From an uncultured Gammaproteobacteria bacterium (lineage in GTDB: Bacteria; Patescibacteriota; Microgenomatia; UBA12405): a stretch of DNA of 32,813 nucleotides. The stretch's first letter is position 1; each line of letters opens with the position of its first letter. The notes below the pieces were generated by a model. That model was not told the origin of the DNA and did no database searches. It saw only the letters and a list, made by a program, of their open reading frames with translations. Location: positions 1 through 32,813 of the forward strand of contig CAYUUU010000002.1 of NCBI GenBank assembly GCA_964448065.1. The letters run 5' to 3'. This document shows, piece after piece, positions 9,713-32,645 of the stretch. The translations under genes and the position numbers were made by a program.

Positions 9713-9726
9713 TTTTTAATTATTAA

Positions 9727-11888: not shown

Positions 11889-12523
11889 AAAAAATTACTT
11901 TTAAAATCTTCAAAAGAACCATCGATATAGTTGGTTCGTTAATTCTTTTAGTTATCTTTTCTCCTATTTTTTTGGTCACTATGATCCTTGTCAAGGTAAC
12001 TTCGCCAGGACCAATATTTTTTAAACAAAAAAGAGTCGGCAAAAACAGTAAACAATTTTGGATGTATAAATTTCGTTCCATGTATACCGGAGACAACGAT
12101 AAACGATTAAGAGATAATTATCCTGAATTGTGGAAAAAATATAAAGAATCTGGTTGGAAATTAGAAATGTCCGAAGATCCCCGAATTACTCCAATTGGTA
12201 AAAAAATTAGATCACTAACTATCGATGAATTTCCTCAATTAGTTAACGTTTTAAAAGGGGATATGAGTTTAGTTGGACCACGAGCCTATCGAGAAGAAGA
12301 GTTACAAGAATATGAAGCCAAATTTCCTCATACCAAACACCTTATAGACGATATTCGATCGGCCAAACCAGGAATTACTGGAGTATGGCAAACATCTGGC
12401 AGAAACGATATTTCTTTTGAACAAAGAGCTCAAATGGATTCCAATTATATTCGTCACCAATCATTCTTAAACGAAATTGTCATTATTTTTAAAACTCCAA
12501 TGTCGATGTTATCACGTTGGTAA
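11885..12523 (+). CDS. Small monotopic phosphoglycosyl transferase (Bac_transf family, PglC/WbaP C-terminal type), the initiating enzyme
   Basis: 212 aa. One N-terminal hydrophobic helix, then PGPIFFKQKRVGKN...FWMYKFRSM...DPRITPIGKKIRSLTIDEFPQLVNVLKGDMSLVGPRA. Confidence 0.9.
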   Translation: MKKITFKIFKRTIDIVGSLILLVIFSPIFLVTMILVKVTSPGPIFFKQKRVGKNSKQFWMYKFRSMYTGDNDKRLRDNYPELWKKYKESGWKLEMSEDPRITPIGKKIRSLTIDEFPQLVNVLKGDMSLVGPRAYREEELQEYEAKFPHTKHLIDDIRSAKPGITGVWQTSGRNDISFEQRAQMDSNYIRHQSFLNEIVIIFKTPMSMLSRW

Positions 12524-20458: not shown

Positions 20459-21781
20459 ATGTCTAAAAAATCTATTTCCTCTCTTAAACAAAGGATAAAA
20501 AATAAATTGTGGCACCGACCTAAAAACTTTTTAATTAGTTCTTACTTTAAATTTCCTTCAAAAAAATTAATTTTAATTGGAGTTACAGGAACTGATGGTA
20601 AAACTACCACCTGTCATTTAGTTCATCATGTTTTAACCAATGCTGGCATTAAAACAGGTCTAATTTCTACTACTGGTGCCAAAATTGGTATCAATGAATA
20701 TCCAACTGAACTTCACATGACATCTCCCGATCCAATTTTAATTCAAAAATTACTCAAAAAAATGGTTGATGAAGGAGTTACTCACGTAGTTTTGGAAGTT
20801 ACTGCTCATGCTTTAGATCAATATCGTTTTTTAGGTTGTCATTTTGAAGTTTCAGCTATCACCAATACTTCACATGAACATTTGGATTATTTCAAAAACA
20901 TGGAAAATTACATTAATATTAAAGCTAAATTATTTAAATATTCCAACAAAGTAATTCTTAATAAAGATGACCAATCTTTTAATCAAATTAAACAACAAAT
21001 TAATAAACCAGTTAAAAGTTACAGTATAAAAAACAAATCTGATTTCCAAGCTACCAAAATAAAATTATCTTCAAATTTACTCAGTTTTAAAGTTAATAAT
21101 CTTTCTTTTGTTACCGACAGTAATTATTATTATCAAACCTACAACATATTAGCTGCTTTAGCTATTATTGATAGCCTTAAAATTAGTCCAGAAATTTTAA
21201 TTGAAACTATTAAAAAATATCCTGAGACCAGTGGTCGTAGAGAAGAAATTTCTAACAGTTTTAAATTTAAAACCATTGTTGATTTTGCTCATACCCCAGC
21301 CGCCTTAGAAAATACTCTTTCTTCCCTCAAAAAAAACACTTCCGGTAACCTAATTGTTATTTTTGGAGCTACTGGTGGTCGAGATCAAAGTAAAAGACCA
21401 TTAATGGGAGAAGTTGTTTCTAATATCGCCAATATTGCTATTATTACTTCTGATGACACCAGAAACGAAAAAATAGATGATATTAATCAACAAATTATTA
21501 GCGGTATTAATTCCAAAAAGTCTGAGTTTGTTGATTTTCAGGTTATCGAAAACAATAGTCAAGTTCAAAAAATATTAGAATTAGCAAAAAATAAATTTGT
21601 TTATTTTAATATTCCTAACCGCCAAGACGCTTTTAATTTGGCTATTAAAATAGCTCAGACCAACGACACTGTTATCGCTTGCGGTAAAGGCCATGAAACC
21701 ACTATACTTAATGGTAAGACCGAATATCCCTGGTCTGAAGCAGAGGCTTTTAGATCTGCTTTCAGGTTTCGAAAACTTTAA
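20459..21781 (+). CDS. murE: MurE-type Mur ligase (UDP-MurNAc-L-Ala-D-Glu:diamino acid ligase) with a very short N-terminal domain
   Basis: 440 aa. P-loop GVTGTDGKTTT at aa 41-51. Motifs MTSPDPILIQ..., VVLEVTAHALDQYR, ITNTSHEHLDYF..Y..IKAKLF, GRREE...VDFAHTPAALE and FGATGGRDQSKRPLMG...ITSDDTRNE. Confidence 0.8.
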   Translation: MSKKSISSLKQRIKNKLWHRPKNFLISSYFKFPSKKLILIGVTGTDGKTTTCHLVHHVLTNAGIKTGLISTTGAKIGINEYPTELHMTSPDPILIQKLLKKMVDEGVTHVVLEVTAHALDQYRFLGCHFEVSAITNTSHEHLDYFKNMENYINIKAKLFKYSNKVILNKDDQSFNQIKQQINKPVKSYSIKNKSDFQATKIKLSSNLLSFKVNNLSFVTDSNYYYQTYNILAALAIIDSLKISPEILIETIKKYPETSGRREEISNSFKFKTIVDFAHTPAALENTLSSLKKNTSGNLIVIFGATGGRDQSKRPLMGEVVSNIANIAIITSDDTRNEKIDDINQQIISGINSKKSEFVDFQVIENNSQVQKILELAKNKFVYFNIPNRQDAFNLAIKIAQTNDTVIACGKGHETTILNGKTEYPWSEAEAFRSAFRFRKL

Positions 21782-21783
21782 TT

Positions 21784-22374
21784 ATGTCTCAATACAATAT
21801 TTCCAATCAAAACGATTTAGAAACCAACTATTCACTAGGCTATTTACCTCAAAGAAACAGTCCTCATCTTTTTTATTTTGACAGCAGTTGTCGATCAAAC
21901 TTAATCAACTTTAAACTTAGTTCTGAAAATCGCCGAATTTTGAATAAAACCGAAAATTTTAGTTTTACTAAAACAGAATCAAAAAAAATCAATTTTTCAT
22001 TAGAAATTCAAAAACAAATTTTTGGTTGGATTAAAAAACTGGAATGGGATTTTCCCATTAGTTCAGTTAAAAATATATTTACTAAACATATTTTTAATTA
22101 TATTTATGTTTGGAAAAACGAAAATAACGAAGTTGTTGCTTATGGTTTATGTCTTTTTACCCAAAGTATTAGTCATATTGCTTATGTTTTTTACAATCCA
22201 GAGTACAGTCATGGAAATTTACCTATTAGACTAGTTCTTCAAGTAATTATCGACAGTCAAGAATTGGGGCTAAAATACTGTTATCTCGGTCGTTTTTCCG
22301 AGTCGACTGGTTTTTATAAACGTAACATGCCCGGTTTTGAATATTTTAAAGATAATAATTGGATTACTTTATAG
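21784..22374 (+). CDS. Bpt/ATE-like (arginyl- or leucyl-tRNA--protein transferase family) aminoacyl-tRNA-dependent transferase
   Basis: 196 aa. The C-terminal half VVAYGLCLFTQSISHIAYVFYNPEYSHGNLPIRLVLQVIIDSQELGLKYCYLGRFSESTGFYKRNMPGFEYF..NNW follows the ATE_C/Bpt consensus as I recall it (..SAvYtFYdP.....slG....L..I..A...Gl.y.YLGY.I.....M.YK..F.P.E....W). N-terminal GYLPQR resembles the ATE_N CxYLPxR motif but lacks the Cys. Confidence 0.65.
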   Translation: MSQYNISNQNDLETNYSLGYLPQRNSPHLFYFDSSCRSNLINFKLSSENRRILNKTENFSFTKTESKKINFSLEIQKQIFGWIKKLEWDFPISSVKNIFTKHIFNYIYVWKNENNEVVAYGLCLFTQSISHIAYVFYNPEYSHGNLPIRLVLQVIIDSQELGLKYCYLGRFSESTGFYKRNMPGFEYFKDNNWITL

Positions 22375-22415
22375 TATGAAATTTTTATTAAATATTTTAA
22401 TTAAATACTCCAATT

Positions 22416-22441
22416 TCCCCTCCTTTTTTCAAGGGAGGGGA
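22416..22441 (+). promoter_or_regulatory. GC-rich RNA hairpin in the bpt-like/mpl-like spacer (arms UCCCCUCCUUU / AAGGGAGGGGA, loop UUUC)
   Basis: Read directly: tcccctccttt-tttc-aagggagggga. It forms an 11-bp stem with one G-U pair. It is the only strongly GC-rich intergenic element in the window. No U-tract follows the stem directly, so it is not a textbook intrinsic terminator. Confidence 0.4.
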
Positions 22442-22467
22442 TTAAGGGGTGGATTTTGTTTTTAATT

Positions 22468-23841
22468 ATGCATATACATATCGTCGGTATTGCTGGAACA
22501 ATGACAGCCAATTTAGCTGTTAGTCTAAAAAAACAAGGCCACATAATTACCGGATCGGATCAAGAAAAAATCTACCCACCTATCAGTACTACTTTAAAAA
22601 AAGCCAAAATTATTATTAACGACACTCCAATTAGCCACGATATAGATTTAGCTATTATTGGTTCTTCTTATGATTCTTTTGAGAAAACTAAACAAGAATT
22701 TGAACAAATAAAAAGTCTAAAAATTCCTTTTATTTCGGCTACCGAATACGTTGCCCAAAATTTAATCAAACAAAATTCAATTTTAGTTGCTGGAAGTTTT
22801 GGTAAAACTACTATTACCAGTTTAGTTAGTTGGATATTTTTAAAAGCCAAAAAAAATCCAAACTACATGATTGGAGGTAATATTAAAAACAAACTCGATT
22901 CAGTTCATTTTTCCCCATCAGATTGGTCAATCACCGAAGCTGATGAGTCAATTCACGGTCTAGATACTATGGCTAAATTTTTATATTATCCAGCTAAATA
23001 TTTGGTTTTAACTAGCGCTACTTGGGAACACAAAGACAGTTATTCCAGCGAAATTGATAATTTCAATTCTTTCAAAGAACTAATTCTAAAAATTCCAAAA
23101 GATGGAGTAATTTTAATAAACAATAAAAATGAGACTGCTAAAAAATTAGCTCTTTTTGCTAATGCAAAAGTTATAACTTATAATTCTTCCGATTCAGATT
23201 ATTTTATTGAAAAAATCCAAATTAAAGAAAATTTAACTACCATTTTGATTCATACTCCAACTGGATTAATTAAAGTTGATACCAAACTTATTGGTCAATT
23301 TAATTTTGAAAATATTTTAGCTGCTGTGGCTATTAGTGATTATTTGGGAATTAAAAGTCATTTTATTCAAAAGGCTATTTTTTCTTTTAATGGAGTTAAA
23401 AGACGATTAGAACTAATTGGTAATCATAAAAATATTTTATTTTTTGATGATTTTGCTCAATCAGATGATCGCATAAAATCGGCCATAAATGCCATAAAAC
23501 TTCACTTTCCTAAACACAATATTAAAGTTTTGTATCAACCTCATGCCAGTTTTATTCAATACAAAGACAGTTTAAAAAATTTTTCTTCTGCTTTTAATCT
23601 AGCTTCCGAAATAGTAGTTAGTCAAATTAACTATAAAAAAGATATTTCCAAAGATCAACGAACCACAGTTAGAGATTTTCAAGATCAAATTGGAAACAAG
23701 TTTCACTATTTACCTATAGAAAAAGATATTATTAGTTATTATAAAAAAAGTTTAAAACCAAAAGATATTTTAATTAATATGAGTTCTGGTGGTAAATCAG
23801 GTAATCATATAATTAAAAATATAATTAAAATTTTTAAATAA
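22468..23841 (+). CDS. MurC/Mpl-family Mur ligase, Mpl-like (UDP-MurNAc:peptide or L-Ala ligase)
   Basis: The ATG at 22468 gives MHIHIVGIAGTMTANLAVSLKKQGHIITGSDQEKIYPPISTTL. This closely parallels the E. coli Mpl N-terminus as I recall it (MRIHILGICGTFMGGLA...GHEVTGSDANVYPPMSTLL). Other motifs are the P-loop AGSFGKTTITS, ITEADES, GVKRRLE and the C-terminal ILINMSSGG. The track's TTG at 22456 adds 4 unlikely residues. Confidence 0.8.
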   Translation: MHIHIVGIAGTMTANLAVSLKKQGHIITGSDQEKIYPPISTTLKKAKIIINDTPISHDIDLAIIGSSYDSFEKTKQEFEQIKSLKIPFISATEYVAQNLIKQNSILVAGSFGKTTITSLVSWIFLKAKKNPNYMIGGNIKNKLDSVHFSPSDWSITEADESIHGLDTMAKFLYYPAKYLVLTSATWEHKDSYSSEIDNFNSFKELILKIPKDGVILINNKNETAKKLALFANAKVITYNSSDSDYFIEKIQIKENLTTILIHTPTGLIKVDTKLIGQFNFENILAAVAISDYLGIKSHFIQKAIFSFNGVKRRLELIGNHKNILFFDDFAQSDDRIKSAINAIKLHFPKHNIKVLYQPHASFIQYKDSLKNFSSAFNLASEIVVSQINYKKDISKDQRTTVRDFQDQIGNKFHYLPIEKDIISYYKKSLKPKDILINMSSGGKSGNHIIKNIIKIFK

Positions 23842-23843
23842 AT

Positions 23844-25172
23844 ATGTCTAGATATATTATTACAGGTGGTAAACCACTCCAAGGAGAAGTTTCTATTCGT
23901 GGAGCTAAAAATGCCAGTTTTAAGGAAATTATTGCTAGTTTATTAACCAAAGATACTATTAAACTTTTTAATGTCCCTCAAATTTCTGATGTCAAAATTA
24001 CTCTTAGTATTGCTAAAAGTTTAGGTTCCAAAATTAACCAAACAGGGGATCATTCATACGAAATAACCACCTCTAAAATTTCTAATTCAACTGTACCTCA
24101 AGGCACTGGCGAAAAATCTAGAACTTCATTTATGTTTGTTGCTCCTTTATTAAATCGAACCGGAAAAGCCATTATTCCAATTCCTGGAGGAGACAAATTG
24201 GGAAGTCGTCCATTAGATCGACTTTTTGATTGTTTTCGTCAAATGAATATTCAAGTTGAAGAAAAAGATAATCAAATTATATTTACTACCAATGGAATTA
24301 TTGGAACTAATTATTCTTTTTTAAAACCATCCCATACTATTACTGAAGTTATTCTTATGACTGCCGCCCTAGCTAAAGGTCAAACAATTATTAACAATGC
24401 TGCTCTTGAACCAGAAATTGATGATCTTATTTTAATGTTAAACAAAATGGGTGCTAAAATTTCCAGAAATAAAAACGATCAAAAACAAATAATAATCAAT
24501 GGAGTTTCTAAATTACATCAAGCCGAACATACTGTAATTTGTGACCGAAATGAAATTGTTACTTTTGCTTGTGCTGCTTTGGCTACCAAAGGTAAAATTA
24601 ATATTCTCCGAGTTAAACCTCAAGTAGTCAAGTCTTTTTTAGAAACCATTAAAACCATGGGGGCTGATGTTCAATCATGTGAGGATGAAATTAATATTAA
24701 ATGGGTTAAACCATTAATTGCTATTAATATTCAAACCGCCCCAGAACCAGGATTTATGACCGATTGGCAAGCTGTTTTTAGTGTCCTTTTAACTCAAACT
24801 GTTGGTTGTAGTTCCATTATTGAAACCGTCTTTCCTTCTCGTTTTCAACATATCGAAAATCTAAAAAAAATGGGAGTAAAAGTCAATTTTTTTAACCCTG
24901 TGGTTGATAATCCCGATCAATACTATCAATTTAATCAATCCAGTGATAAGCCAGAATATTTTCATGGAGTCAAAATTTATGGACCAAACAAACTTAAACC
25001 ATCAGAATTTATAATCAATGATCTTCGAGCCGGAGCCTCAATTACTTTGGCTGCTCTAACTGCCGAAGGTCAATCCGTTGTCAAAGGAGTTGAATATATA
25101 GAACGTGGTTACGAAAAATTAGCCCAGCGTCTATGCGCCCTAGGTGCTAATATAGAGTATATAAAAATTTAA
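23844..25172 (+). CDS. murA: UDP-N-acetylglucosamine 1-carboxyvinyltransferase MurA (Asp in place of the fosfomycin-target Cys)
   Basis: 442 aa. Motifs ITGGKPLQGEVSIRGAKNASFKEIIASLL, active-site loop PIPGGDKLGSRPLD and DLRAGASITLAAL...IERGYE. Confidence 0.95.
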   Translation: MSRYIITGGKPLQGEVSIRGAKNASFKEIIASLLTKDTIKLFNVPQISDVKITLSIAKSLGSKINQTGDHSYEITTSKISNSTVPQGTGEKSRTSFMFVAPLLNRTGKAIIPIPGGDKLGSRPLDRLFDCFRQMNIQVEEKDNQIIFTTNGIIGTNYSFLKPSHTITEVILMTAALAKGQTIINNAALEPEIDDLILMLNKMGAKISRNKNDQKQIIINGVSKLHQAEHTVICDRNEIVTFACAALATKGKINILRVKPQVVKSFLETIKTMGADVQSCEDEINIKWVKPLIAINIQTAPEPGFMTDWQAVFSVLLTQTVGCSSIIETVFPSRFQHIENLKKMGVKVNFFNPVVDNPDQYYQFNQSSDKPEYFHGVKIYGPNKLKPSEFIINDLRAGASITLAALTAEGQSVVKGVEYIERGYEKLAQRLCALGANIEYIKI

Positions 25173-25176
25173 TTTT

Positions 25177-26211
25177 ATGATTCATTTATATCTAGGTTTA
25201 CTTTTATTTTCCTTTTTGCTTACCAGCATTTTAGTTGTTCCTTTTATTAATCTTCTTTACAAATTAAAATTTCAACGTCAAAAACAAAAAACTATCGATT
25301 TTCAAAATAAAAGAACTCCTATTTTTGATAAATTTCACAACTCTAAATCTGGAACTCCAGTTGGAGGTGGATTGTTAATTATTGTTTCAGTCTGTGTTTT
25401 ATTTTTATTTTTAATTCCATTATTCAGAGCTGCAAAAATTTTTATTTCTTCAAATTACAGAATCGATTTAGAAATTAGAATTTTATTTTTTACTTTTATT
25501 AGTTTTGGATTATTAGGTTTATACGATGATGTTTATAAATTTTTTGGTTTCAAAAAAACAGGTTTTTTTGGATTAAAAATGATTCATAAACTTATTCTTC
25601 AATTGGTAATTTCTATAGTTATTTCTTTGATGATTTATTTCCAATTAGGAATTAATTTTATTTATTTGCCATTTTTGGGAGCTATCAATTTAGGATTATT
25701 ATTTATTCCTGTTTCCACGATTATTATTACTGGATTCGCTAATTTTTTTAACATTACCGATGGACTTGATGGTCTATCTTGCGGACTTTTAATGATTGCT
25801 TTATTTGCTTTTTGGATATTGGCCAGTACCTCAATGGATACCGTTATTTCAACCTTTTTAGCTCTTTGGTTAGGAGCTTTAATAGCTTTTCTGTATTTTA
25901 ATATCTTTCCAGCCAGAATTTGGCTAGGTGATGTTGGTTCACTTTCCTTTGGAGCCACATTTGCTGTTATTGCTATTTTGTTAGGTAAAGTTGTTCCTCT
26001 TATTACTGTTGGTTCACCATTTATTATTGAAGGTCTTAGCAGTGCTATTCAAATGATTAGTAAAAAATATTTTAAAAAGAAAATTTTTCCAGCTGCTCCA
26101 ATTCATTTAACTTTACAACAAATTGGTTGGGAAGAACCAAAAATTGTTTCTAGAGCCTGGTTGGCTGGTATTATTTTATCTATATTTGGTCTATGGTTAG
26201 GATTAAATTAA
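25177..26211 (+). CDS. mraY: Phospho-N-acetylmuramoyl-pentapeptide transferase MraY
   Basis: 344 aa polytopic protein. Motifs GTPVGGG, YDDVYKF, NFFNITDGLDGLS, WLGDVGSLSFGA and PIHLTLQQ.GW.E.KIV. Confidence 0.95.
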   Translation: MIHLYLGLLLFSFLLTSILVVPFINLLYKLKFQRQKQKTIDFQNKRTPIFDKFHNSKSGTPVGGGLLIIVSVCVLFLFLIPLFRAAKIFISSNYRIDLEIRILFFTFISFGLLGLYDDVYKFFGFKKTGFFGLKMIHKLILQLVISIVISLMIYFQLGINFIYLPFLGAINLGLLFIPVSTIIITGFANFFNITDGLDGLSCGLLMIALFAFWILASTSMDTVISTFLALWLGALIAFLYFNIFPARIWLGDVGSLSFGATFAVIAILLGKVVPLITVGSPFIIEGLSSAIQMISKKYFKKKIFPAAPIHLTLQQIGWEEPKIVSRAWLAGIILSIFGLWLGLN

Positions 26212-26759
26212 CAGAATTACAAGAAGAAATCAGTCATTATCTTGGTGTTCCTTATTGGAAAAATAAACTTGATAATGGCAAAATAATTAAAGAAGGTTTT
26301 GAAGGTGGTAAGGGCAATTGTCGACAAATTGCCACCGAAACTATTCGACTTGCTCAAAAACAAAAAATCGATTTGGTGAATTTAACCGAACAAGAATTTT
26401 ATAATTTTCAAAAAAGAAATCATATCGGAATAGACTGTTCCGGACTTGTTTGCCAATTGTTAATTTTTTATGGTCAACTAATTAATAAAAAAATTGAATT
26501 TAACATTCGTCGTACTTCCGCCAATATGTTAACTTCATCTCCTTTAGCCAAAGAAATAAAACTAAAAGATGTTCGAACAGGGGATCTAATTCGCCAAAAA
26601 AATGGCCATCATGTTTTATTTATTATCGACAAAGAAGGGGATGTTATAAATTATGTTGATAGTTCACTTAAAGGCCGAGGAGTTAAATTAGGACAATATA
26701 ATATCAAAGACAAAAATTTTGAAAATGAAGGATTTTTCCGTTTATTTTTCTTCGATTAA
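26193..26759 (+). CDS. NlpC/P60-family cysteine peptidase/amidase, no signal peptide (predicted cytoplasmic)
   Basis: 188 aa. Catalytic Cys motif GIDCSGLVCQLL and His region VRTGDLIRQKNGHHVLFIIDKEGDVINYVDSS (compare E. coli MepS as I recall it: GMDCSGFV...TGDLVLF....GHVGIY....FVHAS). The N-terminus is hydrophilic (MVRIKLTELQEEISHY). It overlaps the mraY stop by 19 nt. Confidence 0.75.
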   Translation: MVRIKLTELQEEISHYLGVPYWKNKLDNGKIIKEGFEGGKGNCRQIATETIRLAQKQKIDLVNLTEQEFYNFQKRNHIGIDCSGLVCQLLIFYGQLINKKIEFNIRRTSANMLTSSPLAKEIKLKDVRTGDLIRQKNGHHVLFIIDKEGDVINYVDSSLKGRGVKLGQYNIKDKNFENEGFFRLFFFD

Positions 26760-26900
26760 TTCTCTGTATTTAAGAGGGCTAAGAGAAATAATCTCTACTT
26801 CAGTTCCACATTCACTACATTCCAAAATATCACCAACCATTAAGTTTTCACTTAATTTAATTTCGCTTTTACAATCTGGACAAATAACTTTTTCATTCAT
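26742..26900 (-). CDS. LysW-like zinc-ribbon protein (putative amino-group carrier protein), absent from the supplied ORF track
   Basis: The reverse complement of 26742..26900 reads ATG...TAA over 52 codons: MNEKVICPDCKSEIKLSENLMVGDILECSECGTEVEIISLSPLKYRELIEEK. CPDC and CSEC are separated by 17 residues. The pattern CPxC..E(I/L).L......G(D/E)(I/L)..C..CG.E(V/L)E(I/V)....PL followed by an acidic tail matches LysW/ArgW carriers as I recall them. The canonical EDWGE end is replaced by ELIEEK. Confidence 0.6.
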   Translation of the reverse strand: MNEKVICPDCKSEIKLSENLMVGDILECSECGTEVEIISLSPLKYRELIEEK

Positions 26901-26925
26901 AATTCAATTAATTTTAATTAACTAG

Positions 26926-26931
26926 TATAAT
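26926..26931 (+). promoter_or_regulatory. Candidate -10 box (TATAAT) 11 nt upstream of the PLP-enzyme ATG, in the divergent 42-nt spacer
   Basis: The sequence actagTATAATttagatattatATG is read directly and shows no Shine-Dalgarno motif. This spacer must also carry the promoter of the minus-strand LysW-like gene if that gene is expressed. Confidence 0.25.
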
Positions 26932-26942
26932 TTAGATATTAT

Positions 26943-27764
26943 ATGCCAAAAACACCATTAGTTAAAATAGACAATTTTTATCTTAAACGAGAAGACTTAA
27001 ATTTAACCGGATCAGCCAAAGACCGAGCTATTATTTTTCAAGTAGAAAATTTAAAAAAACAAGGTTTTAACCAGGCTGTAATTTCCAGTACTGGCAATGC
27101 TGCTATTTCCGCTGCCTATTTTTGTCAAAAAAATAATATTAAATTAACTGTTTTTTTATCTCCTGATGTTAATTTACACAAATTGGAAATCATTAAAAAA
27201 TATTCTCCAGAAATTATTTTTTCCAAGACAGCAATTAGTGACGCTATTAAATTTTCCAAAAATAATCAGGCTTATTTACTTCGACAATCAACCGATAAAA
27301 CTGCTCTAATTGGTTATCAACAAATCGGTAAAGAAATATTGGACCAACTTCCCCAAGTTACCAGTATTTTTATTCCAGTTGGCAGTGGCACAACTTTGTT
27401 AGGAATCAGTCAATCATTACCATCAAATGTTAAAATTTTTGCCGCTCAACCAGCCGTTAACTGTCCTATTTCTAAATTTTTTGATTCAAAATTTATTCCA
27501 GAAACAAAAAATATTACTGACGCTATTACTGTTAAGGCCGTTCCTTTGAAAGATGAAATTATAAAAACTATTAAAACTAGCCAAGGAAATGCCTTTACTA
27601 TTCAAAATCAAGAAATTATCGAGGCTTCAAATAAATTAAAATCAAACAAAATTGAAACCTCTTTAGAAGGAGCACTTGCCCTAGCTGCTTTTTTAAAAGC
27701 CAAAAATCAAAAAACCGATTTTGGTAATTATCCAGTCATTATTCTTACCGGATGTCAAAGATAA
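26943..27764 (+). CDS. Fold-type II (tryptophan-synthase-beta/PALP superfamily) PLP-dependent enzyme, short form
   Basis: 273 aa. The PLP-lysine motif KREDLNLTGSAKDRA compares with NPTGSFKDR in threonine synthase and SVKDR in cysteine synthase. Other motifs are SSTGNAAISAA and the phosphate loop PVGSGTTLLG. Confidence 0.8.
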   Translation: MPKTPLVKIDNFYLKREDLNLTGSAKDRAIIFQVENLKKQGFNQAVISSTGNAAISAAYFCQKNNIKLTVFLSPDVNLHKLEIIKKYSPEIIFSKTAISDAIKFSKNNQAYLLRQSTDKTALIGYQQIGKEILDQLPQVTSIFIPVGSGTTLLGISQSLPSNVKIFAAQPAVNCPISKFFDSKFIPETKNITDAITVKAVPLKDEIIKTIKTSQGNAFTIQNQEIIEASNKLKSNKIETSLEGALALAAFLKAKNQKTDFGNYPVIILTGCQR

Positions 27765-28873
27765 ATTTAACCACTCTTTTAAATAAAAATTTTGTCTTCT
27801 TCTTTTTAGTTGTTGACAATTTTTTGGATATTGAAGTCCCTAAACTTACTAATTTTAAAAAGATTTATCTGTCTGATTATCCATCAATAAAATTAAAAAA
27901 CAGTGGAGCTCTTTTAGCCAATCCAAAAGTAATTCAATACATTAAAGATAATTCTGAATCAAAAATTCCAGTTATTGTTCCTTTCAAACCATCAGCTAAA
28001 ATCGATTTTTTGTGCAAAAAATACGGTTGGTTAAAAGCTAGCAATGATGGTCAAATAAACCGATTTTTAGAAGATAAAATAAAATTTGCTCTACTCTGTA
28101 AAAAATATAATTTGCCAACCATTCCTCAAACAATTGATAAATTTAATCAAAAAAATTTTTCTAAATATCAAAAATTATATGGATCAAAATTGATTATTCA
28201 AACTCATTTTGGTTGGGCTGGAAACAGTACTTATTTATCCTCATCATGGTCAGAAATCTCAAATAAAATTGCTCCAAATGTAATTGTTAAATATTCTCCA
28301 TTAATTGAAAAATCTTACTCTCTTTTAAACAATTGCTGTTTAACCAAATTTGGTCTAATTCAAAGTCCACCAGCTCTTCAATATACTGGATTAAAAGAAT
28401 TAACCAGTAATCCTTTTACCACTGTTGGTCGTCAATGGCCTTCTTGTGCTCCTGTGGAAATAACCAATCAGGTTAAAGAAATAACTCAAAATTTTTCCAA
28501 AATTCTAGAAGAAATTAATTACAAGGGATTTTTTGGTTTAGATTTTTTAGTTAAAGACAATCAAGTTTTTCTTTTGGAATGCAATCCTCGATTAACAGCT
28601 TCTTTTGGTTTTTATACCAACCTTGAATTAATTCAAAAAATTACCCCTCTTTTTTATTTTCATTTAATCGAATTTACTCAAACAGATTACAAAATAGATA
28701 TTGAATCAGAACAAAAAAGATTTTATCTAAATTTTGTTGGCTCTGAAATAACTGCTAAAAATAAACATCAACAAACTATAAAAAAAGTACAATTTTTAAA
28801 ACCGATTTTTGACAACACAAATCTAACCAATTCTTCAATAAATTTATCGAAACTTGCCCATGAAAAAACTTAA
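27752..28873 (+). CDS. ATP-grasp carboxylate-amine ligase, subfamily undetermined
   Basis: 373 aa. Motifs FLEDKIKFALLCKKYNLPTIPQT, KLIIQTHFGWAGNSTY and the Mg/ATP motif YKGFFGLDFLVKDNQVFLLECNPRLTASFG. It overlaps the PLP gene by 13 nt and ftsW by 14 nt. Confidence 0.8.
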   Translation: MSKINLTTLLNKNFVFFFLVVDNFLDIEVPKLTNFKKIYLSDYPSIKLKNSGALLANPKVIQYIKDNSESKIPVIVPFKPSAKIDFLCKKYGWLKASNDGQINRFLEDKIKFALLCKKYNLPTIPQTIDKFNQKNFSKYQKLYGSKLIIQTHFGWAGNSTYLSSSWSEISNKIAPNVIVKYSPLIEKSYSLLNNCCLTKFGLIQSPPALQYTGLKELTSNPFTTVGRQWPSCAPVEITNQVKEITQNFSKILEEINYKGFFGLDFLVKDNQVFLLECNPRLTASFGFYTNLELIQKITPLFYFHLIEFTQTDYKIDIESEQKRFYLNFVGSEITAKNKHQQTIKKVQFLKPIFDNTNLTNSSINLSKLAHEKT

Positions 28874-30035
28874 ATCGCCATTGTTAATATTTTTAATTAG
28901 CTTAATTGTTATTGGTTTTGTTTTTATTTCTATTGCCTCATTAACCGAAGGAAATTCTACTATTGGAGACAAATATTATTTCATTAAAAAACAATCCATT
29001 TGGTTAGTTTTAGGGTTTATTAGTTTTTTTATAAGCTCCAAAATAAAAATAGATTTTATAAAAAAAATTTCTTTTCTACTTTATAGTGCTTCTATTGTTG
29101 GTTTAATTTTAGTGTTAATACCTGGATTTGGAAATGAAGCCTTGGGTGCTAAACGTTGGTTAAATCTTGGATTTACCAGCATTCAACCATCAGAAATATT
29201 AAAACTAACCTCAATTATTTATTTCTCTTATCTCTTTTCCAAAGAAGACAAAAAAAATATAAAAACCCTAGTAATTTATTTAGCTATCCCTTTTATCCTT
29301 ATTATTATTGAACCAAACCTAAGTATGGCCTTATTAATTTCTGTAATTGTTTGTTCCATTTATTATCTTTCTGGGGGCAACATAATTCCACTTTTTTTTA
29401 TTAGTCTTTTTGTTTTAATTATTAGTATTCCTTTAATTTTTTTATCTCCATATCGTTCCGCTCGTTTTAAAACTTTTATTAGTCCGGAACAAAACCAAGA
29501 AGGGTCTTCTTATCATAGTAATCAAATTGTTTTGGCTCTGGCCTCTGGAGGAATGTTTGGTAAAGGTTTTGCCAACTCTGATCAAAAATATAAATTTTTA
29601 CCCAAAATTTCCACTGATTCAATATTGGCTGTTATTGGTGAAGAAATGGGATTTGTTGGACTTTTTGTTATCTTATTAATCTATATTTCTTTAATCAATT
29701 ATCTTTTTAAACTTAGTAAAAATCTTATCGATCCTTTTCAAAGTCTTTTAACTTCAGCCACTGCTTGTTGGATTGCTTATCAAAGCCTAATTAATATAGC
29801 TGCCATTGTTGCTGCTATTCCTTTGACCGGAGTTCCTCTACCTTTTATTTCCTATGGGGGATCTTCTCTTTTAACCCTTTTAACCGCTATGGGGTTAATC
29901 AGAAATATCGAAAAAAATAATCAAAACTTGATATACTCAGATAGTAATAATGAAAATAAAAACTCAAAAAATAATCATCACCGGCACCCATCTGACTCCA
30001 GCCTTGGAACTAATTCGTCAATTACAAGAAGATAA
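28860..30035 (+). CDS. ftsW: FtsW/RodA/SpoVE (SEDS) family peptidoglycan polymerase
   Basis: The ATG at 28860 is preferred over the track's TTG at 28854. The protein is polytopic. Motifs GAKRWLNLGFTSIQPSEILK, DSILAVIGEEMGFVG and PLTGVPLPFISYGGSS. It ends in a low-complexity Asn/Ser tail. Confidence 0.9.
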   Translation: MKKLKSPLLIFLISLIVIGFVFISIASLTEGNSTIGDKYYFIKKQSIWLVLGFISFFISSKIKIDFIKKISFLLYSASIVGLILVLIPGFGNEALGAKRWLNLGFTSIQPSEILKLTSIIYFSYLFSKEDKKNIKTLVIYLAIPFILIIIEPNLSMALLISVIVCSIYYLSGGNIIPLFFISLFVLIISIPLIFLSPYRSARFKTFISPEQNQEGSSYHSNQIVLALASGGMFGKGFANSDQKYKFLPKISTDSILAVIGEEMGFVGLFVILLIYISLINYLFKLSKNLIDPFQSLLTSATACWIAYQSLINIAAIVAAIPLTGVPLPFISYGGSSLLTLLTAMGLIRNIEKNNQNLIYSDSNNENKNSKNNHHRHPSDSSLGTNSSITRR

Positions 30036-31047
30036 AAAATATAATTGGGAAATATATTATATTGGTCGTAAAAAAAATTCCAGTGTCGATAATACTGCTT
30101 CAATTGAATCACAAATTATTCCTAATCTAGGGATTAAATTTTTTCCAATTGATTGTGGAAAACTAGATCGTCGTTGGCTTCCAAACACCATAAAGGGAAT
30201 TCCTCAAAGTGTCTCTGGTTTTTTTTCTGCTTTTAAATTAGTTAATAAAATTAAACCAAATATTGTTATTTCTTTTGGAGGATATGTTTCTGTTCCAGTT
30301 ATTATTATTTCTTTTTTTAAAAAAATCCCTAGTATCACCCACGAACAAACTTTAACCAACAGTTTAACCACCAAAATTAATAGCCTTTTTGTTACTAAAG
30401 TAGCTCTATCTTTTAAAAATAACCAGCAAATTAATCAACTTCCCAAAAATAAAGTAGTTATAACCGGAAATTTACTTCGTTATCAATTATTTAACTCCAA
30501 TACCATCTCTATTAAAAATTTCCATACTAAAACTAAAAATTATCCTATTATTTTTATTACCGCCGGAAACCAAGGATCCCATGTTGTTAATCTAATTGTT
30601 AAAAAAATCATTAAAACTTTACCAGAATATTTCTTTGTTCATCAAACTGGTAAAAATGACATTTCTGAATTTAAAAAAATAGAATCAAAACAAAAAAATT
30701 ATCTTTGTTTTGATTATATTAATACTAACGATTTTGGTTATTTGCTTAAAAATAGTAATTTAATTATTAGTCGAGCTGGCGCTAACACTTGTCAAGAAAT
30801 AGTTGCTCTAAATCAAAAGTCAATTTTAATTCCACTTTTAGTTAGTCAACAAGATGAACAAATCTTAAATGCCAAATGGGTAAAATCTCTTAATCCAAAT
30901 GAAACTGAAATTATTTATCAAGACAAATTATCTTCACAACTATTAACCAACGCTATCAAAAAATTAATTGACCAGAAAACAAATAAAAATAAAAAAAATA
31001 TTGAAATTAATTATCAACTTTTAAAACTTGTCCATGAAATTGTTTAA
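29950..31047 (+). CDS. murG: MurG (UDP-GlcNAc:lipid I GlcNAc transferase) with a variant first G-loop
   Basis: 365 aa. IIITGTHLTPALE compares with E. coli GGTGGHVFPGLA. Other motifs are ITAGNQGSHVVN and SRAGANTCQEIVAL...ILIPL...QDEQ..NA. It lies after ftsW and overlaps the ftsW tail by 86 nt. Confidence 0.85.
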   Translation: MKIKTQKIIITGTHLTPALELIRQLQEDKKYNWEIYYIGRKKNSSVDNTASIESQIIPNLGIKFFPIDCGKLDRRWLPNTIKGIPQSVSGFFSAFKLVNKIKPNIVISFGGYVSVPVIIISFFKKIPSITHEQTLTNSLTTKINSLFVTKVALSFKNNQQINQLPKNKVVITGNLLRYQLFNSNTISIKNFHTKTKNYPIIFITAGNQGSHVVNLIVKKIIKTLPEYFFVHQTGKNDISEFKKIESKQKNYLCFDYINTNDFGYLLKNSNLIISRAGANTCQEIVALNQKSILIPLLVSQQDEQILNAKWVKSLNPNETEIIYQDKLSSQLLTNAIKKLIDQKTNKNKKNIEINYQLLKLVHEIV

Positions 31048-31414
31048 GTTTTTGTTACCATTATTATCTTTAGTTTTAATCAGTTATTCAATTTTTTCCC
31101 TAAATCATTCTTTTAAACCAGAAATTACTCCTATTTCTGCTAAAAATGATTTTTATACCAAACTAAACAATTCTTTGAATCAAATTAATCTAGATATTAG
31201 TCAAATTACATTTAGGGATTATCAAAATCAAATAGAATTCTATATAATGGAAGATAACAACACTAGTAAAGTTCTTTTATCTACTCAAAAAGATCCTTAT
31301 TGGCAAATTGCTTCTTTGCAAGAAGTTTTAAAAAAGTCTAAAATTGAAGGGAAAAAACCTTATTTAATCGATCTTAGCATCGATAACCCATATGCAACAT
31401 TCAAAAATAATTAG
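31034..31414 (+). CDS. Minimal FtsQ/DivIB-like bitopic protein (assignment by position only)
   Basis: The ATG at 31034 is preferred over the track's TTG at 31028 and gives 126 aa. It has one TM (LLPLLSLVLISYSIFSL) and a small extracytoplasmic domain. It lies immediately upstream of ftsA and overlaps it. I recognise no sequence motif. Confidence 0.4.
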   Translation: MKLFKFLLPLLSLVLISYSIFSLNHSFKPEITPISAKNDFYTKLNNSLNQINLDISQITFRDYQNQIEFYIMEDNNTSKVLLSTQKDPYWQIASLQEVLKKSKIEGKKPYLIDLSIDNPYATFKNN

Positions 31415-32645
31415 CGGTATAGACATTGGTACTTCAAAAGTTACCACCATAATTGGTCAATATTTTGAAATTGAAAATAGTTTTAATATTATTGCTGTTT
31501 CTTCTATTCCTGCTTTTGGATTCAGAAAAGGTCAAATTATAAATCTCGAACAAGCTTCTCAAACGATTACTAAAAGTATTGAATCTGCTGAAAGAATGGC
31601 TGGATTTCAAATAAATAGTGCCCATATTTCCTTATCTGCCCCTCATATAGAATCTATTAATTCTCGTGGAGTTGTAGCTATTAGTAATCAAAATGGTGAA
31701 ATTAACGCCGAAGATATAGTTCGAGTTACCGAAGCTGCTAAAGCCATCGCTTTACCAACTGGCAAAGAAATAATTCATATTATTCAAAGAAAATTTACTG
31801 TTGATGGTCAAGAGGGGGTTATTGATCCAATTGGAATGAACGGAATTCGACTTGAAGTTGAAGCTCATCTAATTTTAGCTTCCTCTCCAGCTTTAAAAAA
31901 TCTTAAAAAAGCCTTTGAAGATATTGGTATCAGAATTGAAAGTCTAACTTATGCTGGTCTTAGTACTGCCACTACTGCTCTTACCGAAACCGAAAAAGAA
32001 CTAGGAGTTGCCCTGGTTGATATTGGTGGCAGTGTTACCAATATTACTATTTTCTCCGAAGGTTCGCCAATTTTTTCTTCAGTTTTACCTATTGGTGCTA
32101 ATAATATTACCAATGATTTAGCTATTGGTCTCAGATTTTCTATCGAAGATGCTGAAAAAATAAAATTAAAATTAGCCAAAATGTCTGAAAGTAAAAAATT
32201 TGAAGATGAAGTTGAACTTTCTCATTTTGACATTACCAACGATGATAAAAGAAAAATATCTCTTCAGACTGCCATCAACGGTATTGTTAAACCCAGATTA
32301 GAAGAAATTTTTAGTTTAATTTATTCTCAAATTGAAACTAGTGGGTTTCACCAAATTATTCCTTCTGGAATTGTTTTAACCGGCGGTGGAGCTTTAACTG
32401 TAAATGCTAAAGAAATTTGTAGTAAAATAATTCCTCTGCCATTTAGAATCGCCGAACCACCAAAGATGGGTGGTATCGTTGATGATATTTTAAATCCAGC
32501 TTACACTAGCTCTATTGGTTTATTAATGTACAATAAAGACAATATTAGTAAAAAAGGTGCTAATTCTGGAATTAAAAAACCTAAAATATCAATTAATGGT
32601 ATCGTTAATAAAATTAAAGGATTGTTAGAACCAATTCTCCCTTAA
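31392..32645 (+). CDS. ftsA: Cell division protein FtsA (actin-like ATPase)
   Basis: 417 aa. Motifs [38 protein letters not shown] and IVLTGGGAL. Confidence 0.95.

What the first reader, a model, noticed from the sequence alone, without database searches (positions are those of the whole stretch)
26742..26900. Hidden 52-codon minus-strand gene: a LysW-like zinc ribbon with a non-canonical EEK C-terminus
Seen in sequence: the reverse complement of 26742..26900 is a clean ATG-to-TAA ORF, MNEKVICPDCKSEIKLSENLMVGDILECSECGTEVEIISLSPLKYRELIEEK. It falls below the size cut-off of the supplied ORF track. It is the only convincing minus-strand gene in 32.8 kb. It converges on and overlaps the NlpC/P60 gene by 18 nt, and it is divergent from the PLP gene across a 42-nt spacer.

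The four Cys, the conserved Glu/Gly positions and the PL motif mirror LysW/ArgW amino-group carrier proteins as I remember them. Canonical carriers end in ...EDWGE, and substrates attach to the gamma-carboxyl of the terminal Glu. This protein instead ends ELIEEK. That suggests one of three things: a different attachment chemistry (an internal Glu side chain, or the Lys epsilon-amine), removal of the terminal Lys, or a non-carrier role as a small zinc-ribbon adaptor.

The competing plus-strand 68-aa ORF (26719..26925) has no features and is low complexity.
Basis: partly seen in the sequence, partly recalled or inferred. Interest (0 to 1): 0.75.

Follow-up and report, generated by a model that had tools for sequence, protein, structure and literature searches.

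The report
LysW-like carrier ending Glu-Glu-Lys
The 52-codon minus-strand ORF is a real, conserved gene for a LysW-fold zinc-ribbon protein with a near-invariant Glu-Glu-Lys end that travels across several phyla with cell-wall (D-glutamate-step) enzymes rather than lysine-biosynthesis genes, pointing to an undescribed carrier-protein step in peptidoglycan precursor metabolism.

Summary
Observation confirmed. Window 26742..26900 (-) encodes the stated 52-aa protein. It passes Pfam Zn_ribbon_LysW (50.2 bits, cut-off 27). Its AF2 model matches only LysW chains in the PDB (TM 0.69-0.74). The frame is under purifying selection: no stops in 67 orthologues, pN/pS 0.26. The rival plus-strand ORF is an antisense shadow frame.

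It is not canonical LysW. It falls below both NCBIfam LysW cut-offs, and its tail is 4-5 residues shorter and ends E-E-K instead of EDWGE. No LysX/Z/Y/J/K genes are present.

All 86 Ca. Shapirobacteria-type loci show the same order inside the dcw cluster: MraY, NlpC/P60, LysW-like (opposite strand), ThrC-like PLP enzyme, ATP-grasp, FtsW.

The EEK type is a broad subfamily: 39 of the top 150 cluster representatives. It occurs in other Microgenomates, Dojkabacteria, Firestonebacteria, Myxococcota and larger genomes. There it sits beside a MurD-family ligase, NlpC/P60, the same PLP and ATP-grasp enzymes, and sometimes a D-glutamate-cyclase-like domain.

Best reading (inferred): a carrier or adaptor whose EEK tail is handed to these enzymes at the D-Glu step of peptidoglycan precursor synthesis. 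The chemistry is unresolved. Databases call it 'lysine biosynthesis protein LysW', which is probably wrong.

The parts
26742..26900 (-). Gene for the 52-aa LysW-fold zinc-ribbon protein (EEK type), stop codon included
   Evidence: Translation; PF21344 at 50.2 bits; 148 homologues; purifying selection; AF2 plus Foldseek give the LysW fold.
26808..26882 (-). Codons for Cys7..Cys31: the two CxxC knuckles (C7, C10, C28, C31) of the zinc ribbon
   Evidence: The four Cys are invariant in A1. They are the only invariant columns in the divergent alignment A4.
26745..26753 (-). Codons for the C-terminal Glu50-Glu51-Lys52, the presumed functional end
   Evidence: Invariant in 117 of 120 close homologues. 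In 121 divergent members, -1 is E in 96% and -2 is E in 94%, and tail length is fixed at 21-22 aa after the last CxxC, against 26 aa in the DWGE type. AF2 puts only about 4 residues (IEEK) beyond the last strand.
26901..26965 (-). Divergent intergenic region plus a promoter-like site for the small gene: TTAACT-16-TATAAT at 26965..26938 on the minus strand
   Evidence: Best consensus match in 26500..27100 (10 of 12). Weak evidence: 7 sites were found against 2.8 expected in this AT-rich stretch. No Shine-Dalgarno sequence is visible (read).
26193..26759 (+). Cytoplasmic NlpC/P60-family cysteine peptidase, convergent with and overlapping the small gene by 18 nt
   Evidence: PF00877 is weak at 19.7 bits, below the cut-off of 23. 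The catalytic I-D-C-S-G and H motifs are invariant in 81 orthologues and in distant module versions, and there is no signal peptide. The homologue in L087 is 36% identical. In L092 it carries SH3_16 plus NLPC_P60.
26943..27764 (+). Fold-type II PLP enzyme (ThrC-like, 273 aa), divergent from the small gene
   Evidence: PF00291 at 154 bits. The best NCBIfam hits are archaeal-type threonine synthases, all far below cut-off. The Schiff-base Lys motif GSxKxR and the SSxGNAA loop are conserved across module versions. It is adjacent to the small gene in every Shapirobacteria-type locus that extends that far, and the gene is present in the module in seven of the nine lineages sampled.
27752..28873 (+). 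ATP-grasp ligase (373 aa) of an uncharacterised family (PRK06524-like), overlapping the PLP gene by 13 nt
   Evidence: PF02655 at 34 bits; NF005096 at 107.7 bits, below 684. AF2 pLDDT 93. The nearest folds are biotin carboxylase, PurK and CPS at TM about 0.6, and no LysX or RimK appears in the top 50. Orthologues are present in L087, L091, L092 and L095.
20459..23841 (+). Context: MurE-like ligase (20459-21781), Fem/ATE_C-like protein (21784-22374), MurC/Mpl-like ligase (22456-23841)
   Evidence: No murD, murF or ddl lies anywhere in the window.
23844..26211 (+). Context: MurA (23844-25172) and MraY (25177-26211), immediately upstream of the module
28854..32645 (+). Context: FtsW, MurG, FtsQ-like and FtsA, immediately downstream of the module
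   Evidence: The same order is seen in L001-L086.

Best explanation
The ORF is a genuine gene for a small acidic (pI 4.4) LysW-fold zinc-ribbon protein. It belongs to a distinct 'EEK-type' subfamily.

I propose that it works like an amino-group carrier protein: a docking or carrier module that presents a short, fixed-length tail (hydrophobic-Glu-Glu-(Glu)-Lys-COOH) to the active sites of co-encoded enzymes. The pathway it serves is peptidoglycan precursor metabolism around the D-glutamate/MurD step, not lysine or arginine synthesis.

The co-encoded enzymes are:
- an uncharacterised ATP-grasp ligase,
- a ThrC-like PLP enzyme,
- a cytoplasmic NlpC/P60 (gamma-glutamyl-type) cysteine peptidase,
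- in most lineages, a MurD-family ligase.

What is shown:
- The gene is real and selected.
- The fold is LysW.
- The tail is distinct and conserved.
- The gene set is conserved from CPR bacteria to non-CPR phyla.
- The catalytic residues of the partners are intact.

What is inferred:
1. A ligase (the ATP-grasp or the MurD-like enzyme) covalently loads a substrate on the tail. Glutamate is the likeliest substrate.
2. The PLP enzyme and/or the D-Glu-cyclase/racemase-like domain transforms the substrate while it is tethered.
3. NlpC/P60 hydrolyses the amide, releasing the product and regenerating the carrier.

My preferred attachment atom is the epsilon-amine of the terminal Lys. This would leave the substrate's alpha-amino group free for PLP chemistry, the reverse polarity of LysW.
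For: Gene reality.

LysW fold.

Distinct conserved tail.

Synteny. All 86 Shapirobacteria-type loci have the same order and strand arrangement.

The same partners recur around very divergent EEK proteins:
- L087: NlpC/P60, MurD, [LysW-like], PALP, ATP-grasp, FtsW.
- L091: MurD-like, [LysW-like], PALP, ATP-grasp.
- P0423 contig: MraY, NlpC/P60, ATP-grasp, PALP, [LysW-like], MurG.
- L092, a non-CPR 2.97-Mb contig outside any dcw cluster: one co-directional operon of LysW-like, GLUCM-like_C, SH3_16+NlpC/P60, MurD-type ligase (243 bits, above 212), PALP, ATP-grasp.
- L095: the same operon, with GLUCM-like_C fused to NlpC/P60.
- L093 (Firestonebacteria): LysW-like, NlpC/P60, MurD-like.
- L096: MurC, LysW-like, NlpC/P60, MurD-like.

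D-Glu theme:
- MurD adds D-Glu (established knowledge).
- The SH3_16+NlpC/P60 architecture is that of gamma-D-glutamyl-L-diamino-acid peptidases (Pfam description).
- PF14336 is the D-glutamate-cyclase domain and is related to Asp/Glu racemases (PMC5339696).

Catalytic residues of NlpC/P60 and the PLP enzyme are intact in all versions.

The protein is acidic, like LysW.
Against: - No direct evidence exists for any covalent adduct.
- The ATP-grasp is not LysX/RimK-like by sequence (no such hit at E <= 1) or by fold ranking. The LysX-LysW precedent therefore does not transfer by homology.
- Co-folding of the carrier with partners could not be run.
- L096 lacks an adjacent PALP and ATP-grasp, and Shapirobacteria lack an adjacent MurD. 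The 'core' set is therefore not identical everywhere.
- The AF2 model leaves only about 4 residues protruding. That is short for reaching a buried active site compared with canonical LysW.
- The D-Glu assignment rests on the family names of neighbours, not on tested activities.
- I could not check whether these genomes lack murI.
Confidence: 0.5

Rival explanations
1. Non-covalent adaptor or regulatory subunit. The zinc ribbon binds one of the enzymes (MurD-type ligase, ATP-grasp or NlpC/P60) and tunes or scaffolds it. The acidic EEK tail acts as a pseudo-substrate or plug that mimics the ...gamma-D-Glu-L-Lys end of the murein stem peptide. Nothing is ever attached to it.
For: - The tail is short; about 4 residues protrude.
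- Its E-K end resembles the iGlu-Lys of Lys-type stem peptides (inference).
- The most constant neighbours, NlpC/P60 and the MurD-like ligase, both recognise such peptides.
- L096 lacks the PLP and ATP-grasp enzymes that would modify a tethered substrate.
- The ATP-grasp is unrelated to LysX.
Against: - Every characterised protein with this fold is a covalent carrier (the six PDB matches).
- Near-invariance of a terminal Lys plus two Glu over sequences only about 40% identical, together with a fixed tail length, is more typical of a catalytic handle than of a loose regulatory tail.
- Co-occurrence with two ATP-dependent amide ligases and an amidase fits a load-and-release cycle.
Confidence: 0.25
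2. Pro-carrier with canonical LysW polarity. The terminal Lys is a cap that is clipped off, for example by the NlpC/P60 peptidase, to expose Glu51. The gamma-carboxyl of Glu51 then carries the alpha-amino group of a substrate exactly as in LysW/ArgW. Alternatively, the substrate is attached to an internal Glu side chain with Lys left in place.
For: - Glu at -1 and -2 is almost as conserved as Lys (96% and 94%).
- A papain-like peptidase is always nearby.
- Analogy (own knowledge): the tubulin -EEY cycle, in which a cysteine peptidase removes and an ATP-grasp-fold ligase re-adds the encoded terminal residue.
Against: - Natural variants ending ...ETK...EQK...EGK and ...LHK would not expose a Glu.
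- An alpha-amino-tethered substrate cannot form the external aldimine that a fold-type II PLP enzyme needs at C-alpha (established PLP chemistry).
- The ATP-grasp is not LysX/ArgX-like.
- Why encode a cap at all?
Confidence: 0.12
3. Bona fide LysW/ArgW of alpha-aminoadipate lysine (or arginine) biosynthesis, as current database names state.
For: Several NCBI and JGI records name homologues 'lysine biosynthesis protein LysW' or 'alpha-aminoadipate carrier protein LysW'. The Pfam domain hit supports the fold.
Against: - It falls below both curated equivalog/domain cut-offs: TIGR01206 at 38.7, below 53.2; NF041070 at 34.3, below 75.
- It lacks the EDWGE end and has a shorter tail.
- No LysX/RimK-type ligase, LysZ, LysY, LysJ or LysK is present in the 32.8-kb window or in any of about 95 related loci.
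- The context is cell-wall synthesis.
Confidence: 0.03
4. Not a gene: a chance ORF on the antisense strand of an intergenic or overlapping region, with the plus-strand 68-aa ORF as the real product.
For: Small size. No obvious Shine-Dalgarno sequence (read).
Against: - 0 stops in 67 orthologues and pN/pS of 0.26.
- The plus-strand frame is broken in 52% of orthologues.
- Family-level Pfam and PDB matches.
- Conserved in 93 species-representative genomes.
Confidence: 0.01

Closest known systems
LysW/ArgW amino-group carrier proteins (AmCP) of Thermus, Sulfolobus and Thermococcus (PDB 3wwl, 3vpb, 5k2m)
   Same: - Size of about 50-55 aa.
- The four-Cys zinc-ribbon fold (TM 0.69-0.74, RMSD 1.4-2.4 Å).
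- Conserved G, E and P-L positions.
- Strongly acidic.
- Encoded next to an ATP-dependent amide ligase and an amidase-type release enzyme.
   Different: - The tail is 4-5 residues shorter and ends E-E-K instead of E-D-W-G-E.
- It falls below the NCBIfam LysW cut-offs.
- The partner ligase is a different ATP-grasp family.
- The partners are a ThrC-like PLP enzyme, NlpC/P60 and a MurD-type ligase, instead of LysZ/Y/J/K.
- The context is cell-wall synthesis.
- If Lys is the handle, the tether polarity would be inverted.
MurD2/MurL alternative D-glutamate route in Xanthomonas and relatives (PMC8788868)
   Same: An accessory, ATP-dependent system genetically tied to a MurD-family ligase that replaces or bypasses glutamate racemase. 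It is a precedent that the 'fully known' cytoplasmic peptidoglycan steps have lineage-specific variants.
   Different: - There is no MurL homologue here.
- The module-linked ligases keep the Lys348 equivalent (MurD2 has Arg) and have Asn or Asp, not Glu, at the Asp182 position. They are therefore not MurD2-type.
- MurD2/MurL uses no carrier protein, PLP enzyme or NlpC/P60.
Carrier-peptide ('pearlin') and sulfur-carrier systems: TglA scaffold peptide (PMC9303977, listed), and CysO/CysM with the Mec+ protease (own knowledge)
   Same: A small ribosomal protein or peptide carries a substrate on its C-terminus. The substrate is modified there (in CysO/CysM by a fold-type II PLP enzyme). A protease then releases the product and recycles the carrier.
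   Different: The folds differ (ubiquitin-like, or unstructured peptides). The loading enzymes differ (PEARL tRNA-dependent ligases, or adenylating E1-like enzymes). None is linked to murein ligases.
Tubulin -EEY tyrosination cycle (TTL ATP-grasp-fold ligase plus vasohibin papain-like peptidase) and RimK/S6 (own knowledge; ATP-grasp/peptidase pairing discussed in PMC3495828)
   Same: A genetically encoded acidic C-terminus (…E-E-X) is worked on by an ATP-grasp-fold ligase and a papain-superfamily cysteine peptidase.
   Different: These are eukaryotic cytoskeletal or ribosomal targets. The modification regulates the protein itself rather than making a metabolite. There is no sequence relationship.

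Membership tests
LysW-fold zinc ribbon (Pfam PF21344, structural family) | Scores above the Pfam gathering threshold for Zn_ribbon_LysW | tested here: met
   50.2 bits against 27, E = 2e-13, residues 6-47 on profile positions 2-43 of 46. All 148 homologues carry PF21344.
LysW-fold zinc ribbon (Pfam PF21344, structural family) | Four Cys in two CxxC knuckles, and the LysW three-dimensional fold | tested here: met
   C7, C10, C28 and C31 are invariant. AF2 pLDDT is 85.9. The top six Foldseek hits are all LysW chains (TM 0.69-0.74), followed by a sharp drop.
LysW/ArgW amino-group carrier protein (functional family, TIGR01206 / NF041070) | Reaches the curated NCBIfam cut-off | tested here: not met
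   TIGR01206 at 38.7, below 53.2. NF041070 at 34.3, below 75.
LysW/ArgW amino-group carrier protein (functional family, TIGR01206 / NF041070) | C-terminal ...E-D-W-G-E, with the terminal Glu gamma-carboxyl as attachment site | tested here: not met
   The protein ends ...E-L-I-E-E-K. 117 of 120 homologues end EEK. The tail has 21-22 residues after the last CxxC, against 26 in the DWGE type.
LysW/ArgW amino-group carrier protein (functional family, TIGR01206 / NF041070) | Genomic association with a LysX/ArgX (RimK-type) ligase and LysZ, LysY, LysJ, LysK | tested here: not met
   None is present in the window or in related loci. The neighbouring ATP-grasp gives no RimK or LysX hit in Pfam or PDB at E <= 1. 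Its nearest folds are BC, PurK and CPS.
LysW/ArgW amino-group carrier protein (functional family, TIGR01206 / NF041070) | Covalent ATP-dependent loading of a substrate on the tail, and release by a hydrolase | not testable with these tools
   This needs MS or biochemistry.
LysW/ArgW amino-group carrier protein (functional family, TIGR01206 / NF041070) | Strongly acidic surface for docking on partner enzymes | tested here: met
   pI 4.40, net charge -6. Distant members have net -9 to -13, comparable with Thermus LysW.
EEK-type LysW-like subfamily (defined here) | A single LysW ribbon, a fixed tail of P-L plus 9 residues ending hydrophobic-E-E-(E)-K, and linkage to NlpC/P60 plus a MurD-type ligase and/or a ThrC-like PLP enzyme plus a PRK06524-like ATP-grasp | tested here: met
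   Tail. Linkage in 9 independent lineages.
MurD2/MurL alternative D-Glu pathway | A MurD paralogue with Glu/Arg at E. coli positions 182/348, plus a MurL epimerase gene | tested here: not met
   Module-linked ligases have N or D at position 182 and K at position 348. No MurL-like gene is in any locus.

The most novel reading that the evidence does not exclude
The EEK-type protein is a 'carboxyl-group carrier protein': a LysW fold with reversed tether polarity.

Proposed cycle:
1. The ATP-grasp (or the MurD-like ligase) activates the gamma-carboxyl of L-glutamate and joins it to the epsilon-amine of the terminal Lys.
2. The tethered residue keeps its alpha-amino acid end free. It is epimerised to D-Glu by the ThrC-like PLP enzyme, or in some lineages by the racemase-related GLUCM-like domain.
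3. A gamma-D-glutamyl-specific NlpC/P60 peptidase releases only the D-product to MurD.

This would be an ATP-driven, one-directional D-glutamate supply built on a protein carrier. It would replace glutamate racemase in Shapirobacteria and other lineages.
Probability: 0.15. Interest if true: 0.9.

Novelty: new variant of a known kind. Interest (0 to 1): 0.74.

Why it matters
The cytoplasmic steps of peptidoglycan synthesis are textbook-complete. MurD2/MurL is, to my knowledge, the main recent addition to how D-Glu is supplied. A carrier-protein-dependent step would be a second addition, and the first use of a LysW-type carrier outside lysine, arginine or secondary-metabolite synthesis.

The module is embedded in the dcw operon of a major CPR lineage and conserved as a stand-alone operon in other phyla. 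It offers a directly testable explanation of how genome-reduced Patescibacteria obtain or install D-glutamate.

It would also correct a widespread mis-annotation ('lysine biosynthesis protein LysW') that inflates the apparent amino-acid biosynthetic capacity of CPR genomes.

The co-directional five- or six-gene operons (L092, L095) are ready-made constructs for heterologous reconstitution.

Tried and rejected
1. Canonical LysW assignment: rejected, because the NCBIfam cut-offs, the tail and the partner genes all fail.

2. ATP-grasp as a LysX/RimK homologue: not supported.
   - Single-sequence and profile searches of PDB gave only CPS, PurK and pyruvate carboxylase at E of about 0.003-1.
   - The Foldseek top 50 are all BC, PurK and CPS.

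No interface evidence could be obtained.

4. MurD2-type (L-Glu-adding) ligase hypothesis: rejected on the two diagnostic residues. The pocket is atypical, however, with D182N in 3 of 4 ligases and K319 lost in 3 of 4.

5. Literature searches found nothing describing this subfamily or module. Searches covered:
   - LysW with Patescibacteria, CPR or peptidoglycan;
   - 'amino-group carrier protein' with ATP-grasp;
   - LysW with NlpC, Mur ligase or amidoligase.

6. Plus-strand 68-aa ORF as the real gene: rejected.

7. Cluster look-ups for taxonomy gave only one name, Gottesmanbacteria. The profile search was more informative.

8. I could not establish whether module-bearing genomes lack murI, murD, murF or ddl. 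Only loci of 16 kb or less could be fetched.
Full report
**1. Observation**

The reverse complement of window 26742..26900 is an ATG-to-TAA ORF encoding MNEKVICPDCKSEIKLSENLMVGDILECSECGTEVEIISLSPLKYRELIEEK.
- It overlaps the 3' end of the convergent 188-aa gene (26193..26759) by 18 nt.
- It is 42 nt from the divergent PLP-enzyme gene (ATG 26943).
- All other minus-strand ORFs of at least 60 aa lie inside plus-strand genes.

**2. Is it a gene?**

Yes. A database search found 148 close homologues of 50-56 aa, all carrying PF21344. A scan of one genome per species found 93 genomes encoding it, of which 80 loci were fetched.

- The minus-strand frame is open in 100% of them, with pN/pS = 0.26. pS is 0.79, near saturation, so the true ratio is lower.
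- The competing plus-strand 68-aa ORF (26719..26925) is the antisense frame that shares third-codon positions. That explains its relatively low pN/pS of 0.36.
- The plus-strand frame is broken by stop codons in 52% of orthologues and has no family hit. It is a shadow ORF.

The best promoter-like match in the region lies on the minus strand. It reads TTAACT-16-TATAAT at 26965..26938, about 38 nt upstream of the ATG. This is weak evidence in AT-rich DNA.

**3. What is the protein?**

Fold. It has the LysW fold.
- Pfam Zn_ribbon_LysW scores 50.2 bits against a cut-off of 27.
- phmmer against PDB finds Thermus LysW 3wwl (1e-7) and Thermococcus LysW 5k2m (7e-7).
- The AF2 model has pLDDT 85.9. The only confident Foldseek matches in the PDB are six LysW chains, from complexes with LysZ, LysY and LysX/ArgX, at TM 0.69-0.74 and RMSD 1.4-2.4 Å. 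A sharp drop follows.
- It is acidic, with pI 4.4 and net charge -6.

Function. It is not a canonical LysW.
- It scores below both curated NCBIfam cut-offs: TIGR01206 at 38.7 (below 53.2) and NF041070 at 34.3 (below 75).
- Its tail is shorter: 21-22 residues after the last CxxC, against 26 in ...DWGE proteins.
- It ends E-E-K.
- The model places residues 43-48 in a beta-strand, so only about four residues (IEEK) protrude.

**4. Context in the window**

The window is a division/cell-wall (dcw) cluster, all on the plus strand. In order:
- RsmH, FtsL-like, FtsI
- MurE-like ligase, a Fem/ATE_C-like protein, MurC/Mpl-like ligase
- MurA, MraY
- the module: NlpC/P60-like, LysW-like (minus strand), fold-type II PLP enzyme, ATP-grasp
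- FtsW, MurG, FtsQ-like, FtsA

The module sits where murD normally lies, between mraY and ftsW. No murD, murF or ddl is present in the 32.8 kb. No LysX/RimK-type ligase, LysZ, LysY, LysJ or LysK is present either.

The partners:
- The PLP enzyme is ThrC-like. It has an S-S-T-G-N-A-A loop, and its best NCBIfam hits are archaeal-type threonine synthases, all far below cut-off.
- The ATP-grasp belongs to an uncharacterised family (PRK06524-like). Its AF2 model is confident (pLDDT 93), but the nearest solved folds are biotin carboxylase, PurK and CPS at TM of about 0.6. Neither sequence nor profile searches find LysX or RimK.
- The 188-aa protein carries the NlpC/P60 catalytic I-D-C-S-G and His motifs. 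These are invariant in 81 orthologues. It has no signal peptide, so it is cytoplasmic.

**5. Conservation of the neighbourhood**

All 86 Shapirobacteria-type loci have the identical order and the same opposite-strand orientation of the small gene. Differences come only from contig ends.

Organism names are mostly Ca. Shapirobacteria, with some Woesebacteria, Microgenomates or Patescibacteria. Many MAGs are titled 'uncultured Gammaproteobacteria', which looks like placeholder taxonomy.

**6. The EEK type is a broad subfamily**

An exhaustive profile search of 1.84 billion cluster representatives gave 779 hits. The top 150 break down as follows:
- 39 end in EEK, plus 6 with near-variants
- 17 end in canonical EDWGE-like tails
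- 19 have other acidic tails
- 29 have other, non-acidic or truncated ends
- 40 are long or multi-domain proteins (>110 aa), most of them two-ribbon

In an alignment of 37 divergent EEK-type proteins (about 40-55% identical), only the four Cys are invariant. Even so, the tail keeps a fixed length of P-L plus 9 residues and ends hydrophobic-E-E-E-K.

Over 121 divergent K-terminated members, position -1 is Glu in 96%, -2 in 94% and -3 in 83%. Rare variants end ETK, EQK, EGK or LHK.

A second profile search returned 71 more EEK-type proteins. Their named sources include Ca. Microgenomates, Dojkabacteria, Firestonebacteria, Myxococcota and a 'candidate division'. Ca. Gottesmanbacteria came from a cluster look-up.

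**7. The same partners recur around distant members**

| Locus | Gene order |
|---|---|
| L087 | MraY, PaaX, NlpC/P60-like (36% identical to the window's), MurD (TIGR01087 260.7, above 212), [LysW-like, opposite strand], PALP, ATP-grasp, FtsW, MurG |
| L091 | MurD-like, [LysW-like], PALP, ATP-grasp |
| P0254 contig | PALP divergent from the small gene |
| P0423 contig | Mur ligase, FemAB, FemAB, MraY, NlpC/P60, ATP-grasp, PALP, [LysW-like], MurG, FtsW |
| L092 (2.97-Mb contig, non-CPR, not in a dcw cluster) | One co-directional operon: LysW-like, D-glutamate-cyclase-like protein (PF14336, 210 bits), SH3_16+NlpC/P60, MurD-type ligase (243.2, above 212), ThrC-like PALP, PRK06524-like ATP-grasp |
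| L095 | The same operon, with PF14336 and NlpC/P60 fused in one 566-aa protein |
| L093 (Firestonebacteria) | LysW-like, NlpC/P60, MurD-like, then contig end |
| L096 (...DEDEK variant) | MurC (374, above 335), LysW-like (ATG overlaps the murC stop), NlpC/P60, MurD-like (198); no PALP or ATP-grasp adjacent |

Counting the Shapirobacteria clade as one, nine independent lineages link the small protein to a recurring set:
- NlpC/P60
- a MurD-family ligase
- a ThrC-like PLP enzyme
- one particular ATP-grasp family

**8. What this suggests**

Every identifiable partner points to the gamma-D-glutamyl part of the murein stem peptide.
- MurD adds D-Glu.
- The SH3_16+NlpC/P60 architecture is that of cytoplasmic gamma-D-glutamyl-L-diamino-acid peptidases (Pfam description).
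- PF14336 is the domain of mammalian D-glutamate cyclase and is reported to be homologous to Asp/Glu/hydantoin racemases (PMC5339696).
- In L096 the gene sits exactly between murC and the murD-like gene.

The nearest precedent for a lineage-specific D-Glu route tied to a MurD paralogue is MurD2/MurL (PMC8788868). That system is not what we have here.
- The module-linked ligases keep the Lys348 equivalent and have Asn or Asp, not Glu, at the Asp182 position.
- There is no MurL.
- Their pockets are atypical, however. Asp182 is replaced by Asn in 3 of 4, and Lys319 is lost in 3 of 4. Lys319 is the position whose mutation lets E. coli MurD accept L-Glu.

**9. Mechanism (inferred)**

The set comprises two ATP-dependent amide ligases, an amidase, a PLP enzyme, and a small acidic LysW-fold protein with an invariant functional-looking tail. 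The simplest reading is a load-transform-release cycle on a carrier, as in LysW systems, serving peptidoglycan precursor synthesis.

I favour the terminal Lys epsilon-amine as the handle, for two reasons.
- A fold-type II PLP enzyme needs a free alpha-amino group. A substrate tethered through its own amino group, as in LysW, would not have one. A glutamate tethered through its gamma-carboxyl to Lys would.
- Rare variants lose the penultimate Glu.

This is not shown. The almost equal conservation of the two Glu residues keeps canonical polarity and the Lys-clipping model alive. The short tail and the L096 arrangement keep a non-covalent adaptor or pseudo-substrate role alive.

**10. Novelty**

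The fold and the carrier concept are known. The gene is already called in public records, but it is named 'lysine biosynthesis protein LysW'. That name is very probably wrong.

I found no paper describing the EEK-type tail, its partner set or a LysW-like protein in cell-wall clusters.

I class it as a new variant of a known kind. If the reversed-polarity D-Glu cycle holds, which I put at about 15%, it would be a new class of carrier chemistry and a new peptidoglycan step.

Noticed in passing
window 20459-23841: The dcw cluster holds only two Mur ligases. The MurE-like one matches the MurE model only from profile position ~74, so its N-terminal domain is missing or divergent. The MurC/Mpl-like one is below both cut-offs. 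No murD, murF, murB or ddl lies anywhere in the 32.8 kb.
   Followed up: partly
window 21784-22374: A 196-aa ATE_C/Fem-like (aminoacyl-tRNA transferase-type) gene sits between the two ligases and is conserved in related loci. A distant module-bearing contig (P0423) has two FemAB genes beside the module. This hints at Lys-type peptidoglycan with a tRNA-dependent cross-bridge.
   Followed up: no
window 29950-30035: The FtsW and MurG ORFs overlap by 86 nt. The FtsW C-terminus is a low-complexity N/S/H-rich tail, so the true MurG start may lie further downstream.
   Followed up: no
L095 8156-9856: A D-glutamate-cyclase-like domain (PF14336) and NlpC/P60 are fused in one 566-aa protein directly downstream of the EEK-type gene. 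In L092 they are two adjacent genes.
   Followed up: partly
L096 8001-8004: The start codon of the LysW-like gene (...DEDEK variant) overlaps the stop of a bona fide murC, which suggests translational coupling. This locus has NlpC/P60 and a MurD-like ligase but no adjacent PLP enzyme or ATP-grasp.
   Followed up: partly
L008, L010, L012 and many others: Many species-representative MAGs that carry a locus collinear with, and 65-83% identical to, the Shapirobacteria one are titled 'uncultured Gammaproteobacteria'. This is evidently a placeholder or wrong taxonomy label.
   Followed up: no
proteins P0247, P0285, P0270-P0275: Tandem two-ribbon LysW-like proteins exist. Some end ...EEEK or ...EGK. 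A separate family of about 120-140 aa with two ribbons ends in basic tails. Their contexts were not examined.
   Followed up: no
window 1-12523: The upstream third of the window is a polysaccharide-synthesis cluster: several GT4 and GT2 glycosyltransferases, a Wzy-like polymerase, a hexapeptide acyltransferase, a nucleotidyl transferase and an initiating sugar transferase. A 652-aa DUF4012 protein follows at 12553-14511.
   Followed up: no
window 26901-26965 versus L092/L093/L095: In all CPR versions the small gene is on the opposite strand to its partners, divergent from the PLP gene. In non-CPR versions it is the first gene of a co-directional operon. The reason is unexplained.
   Followed up: no
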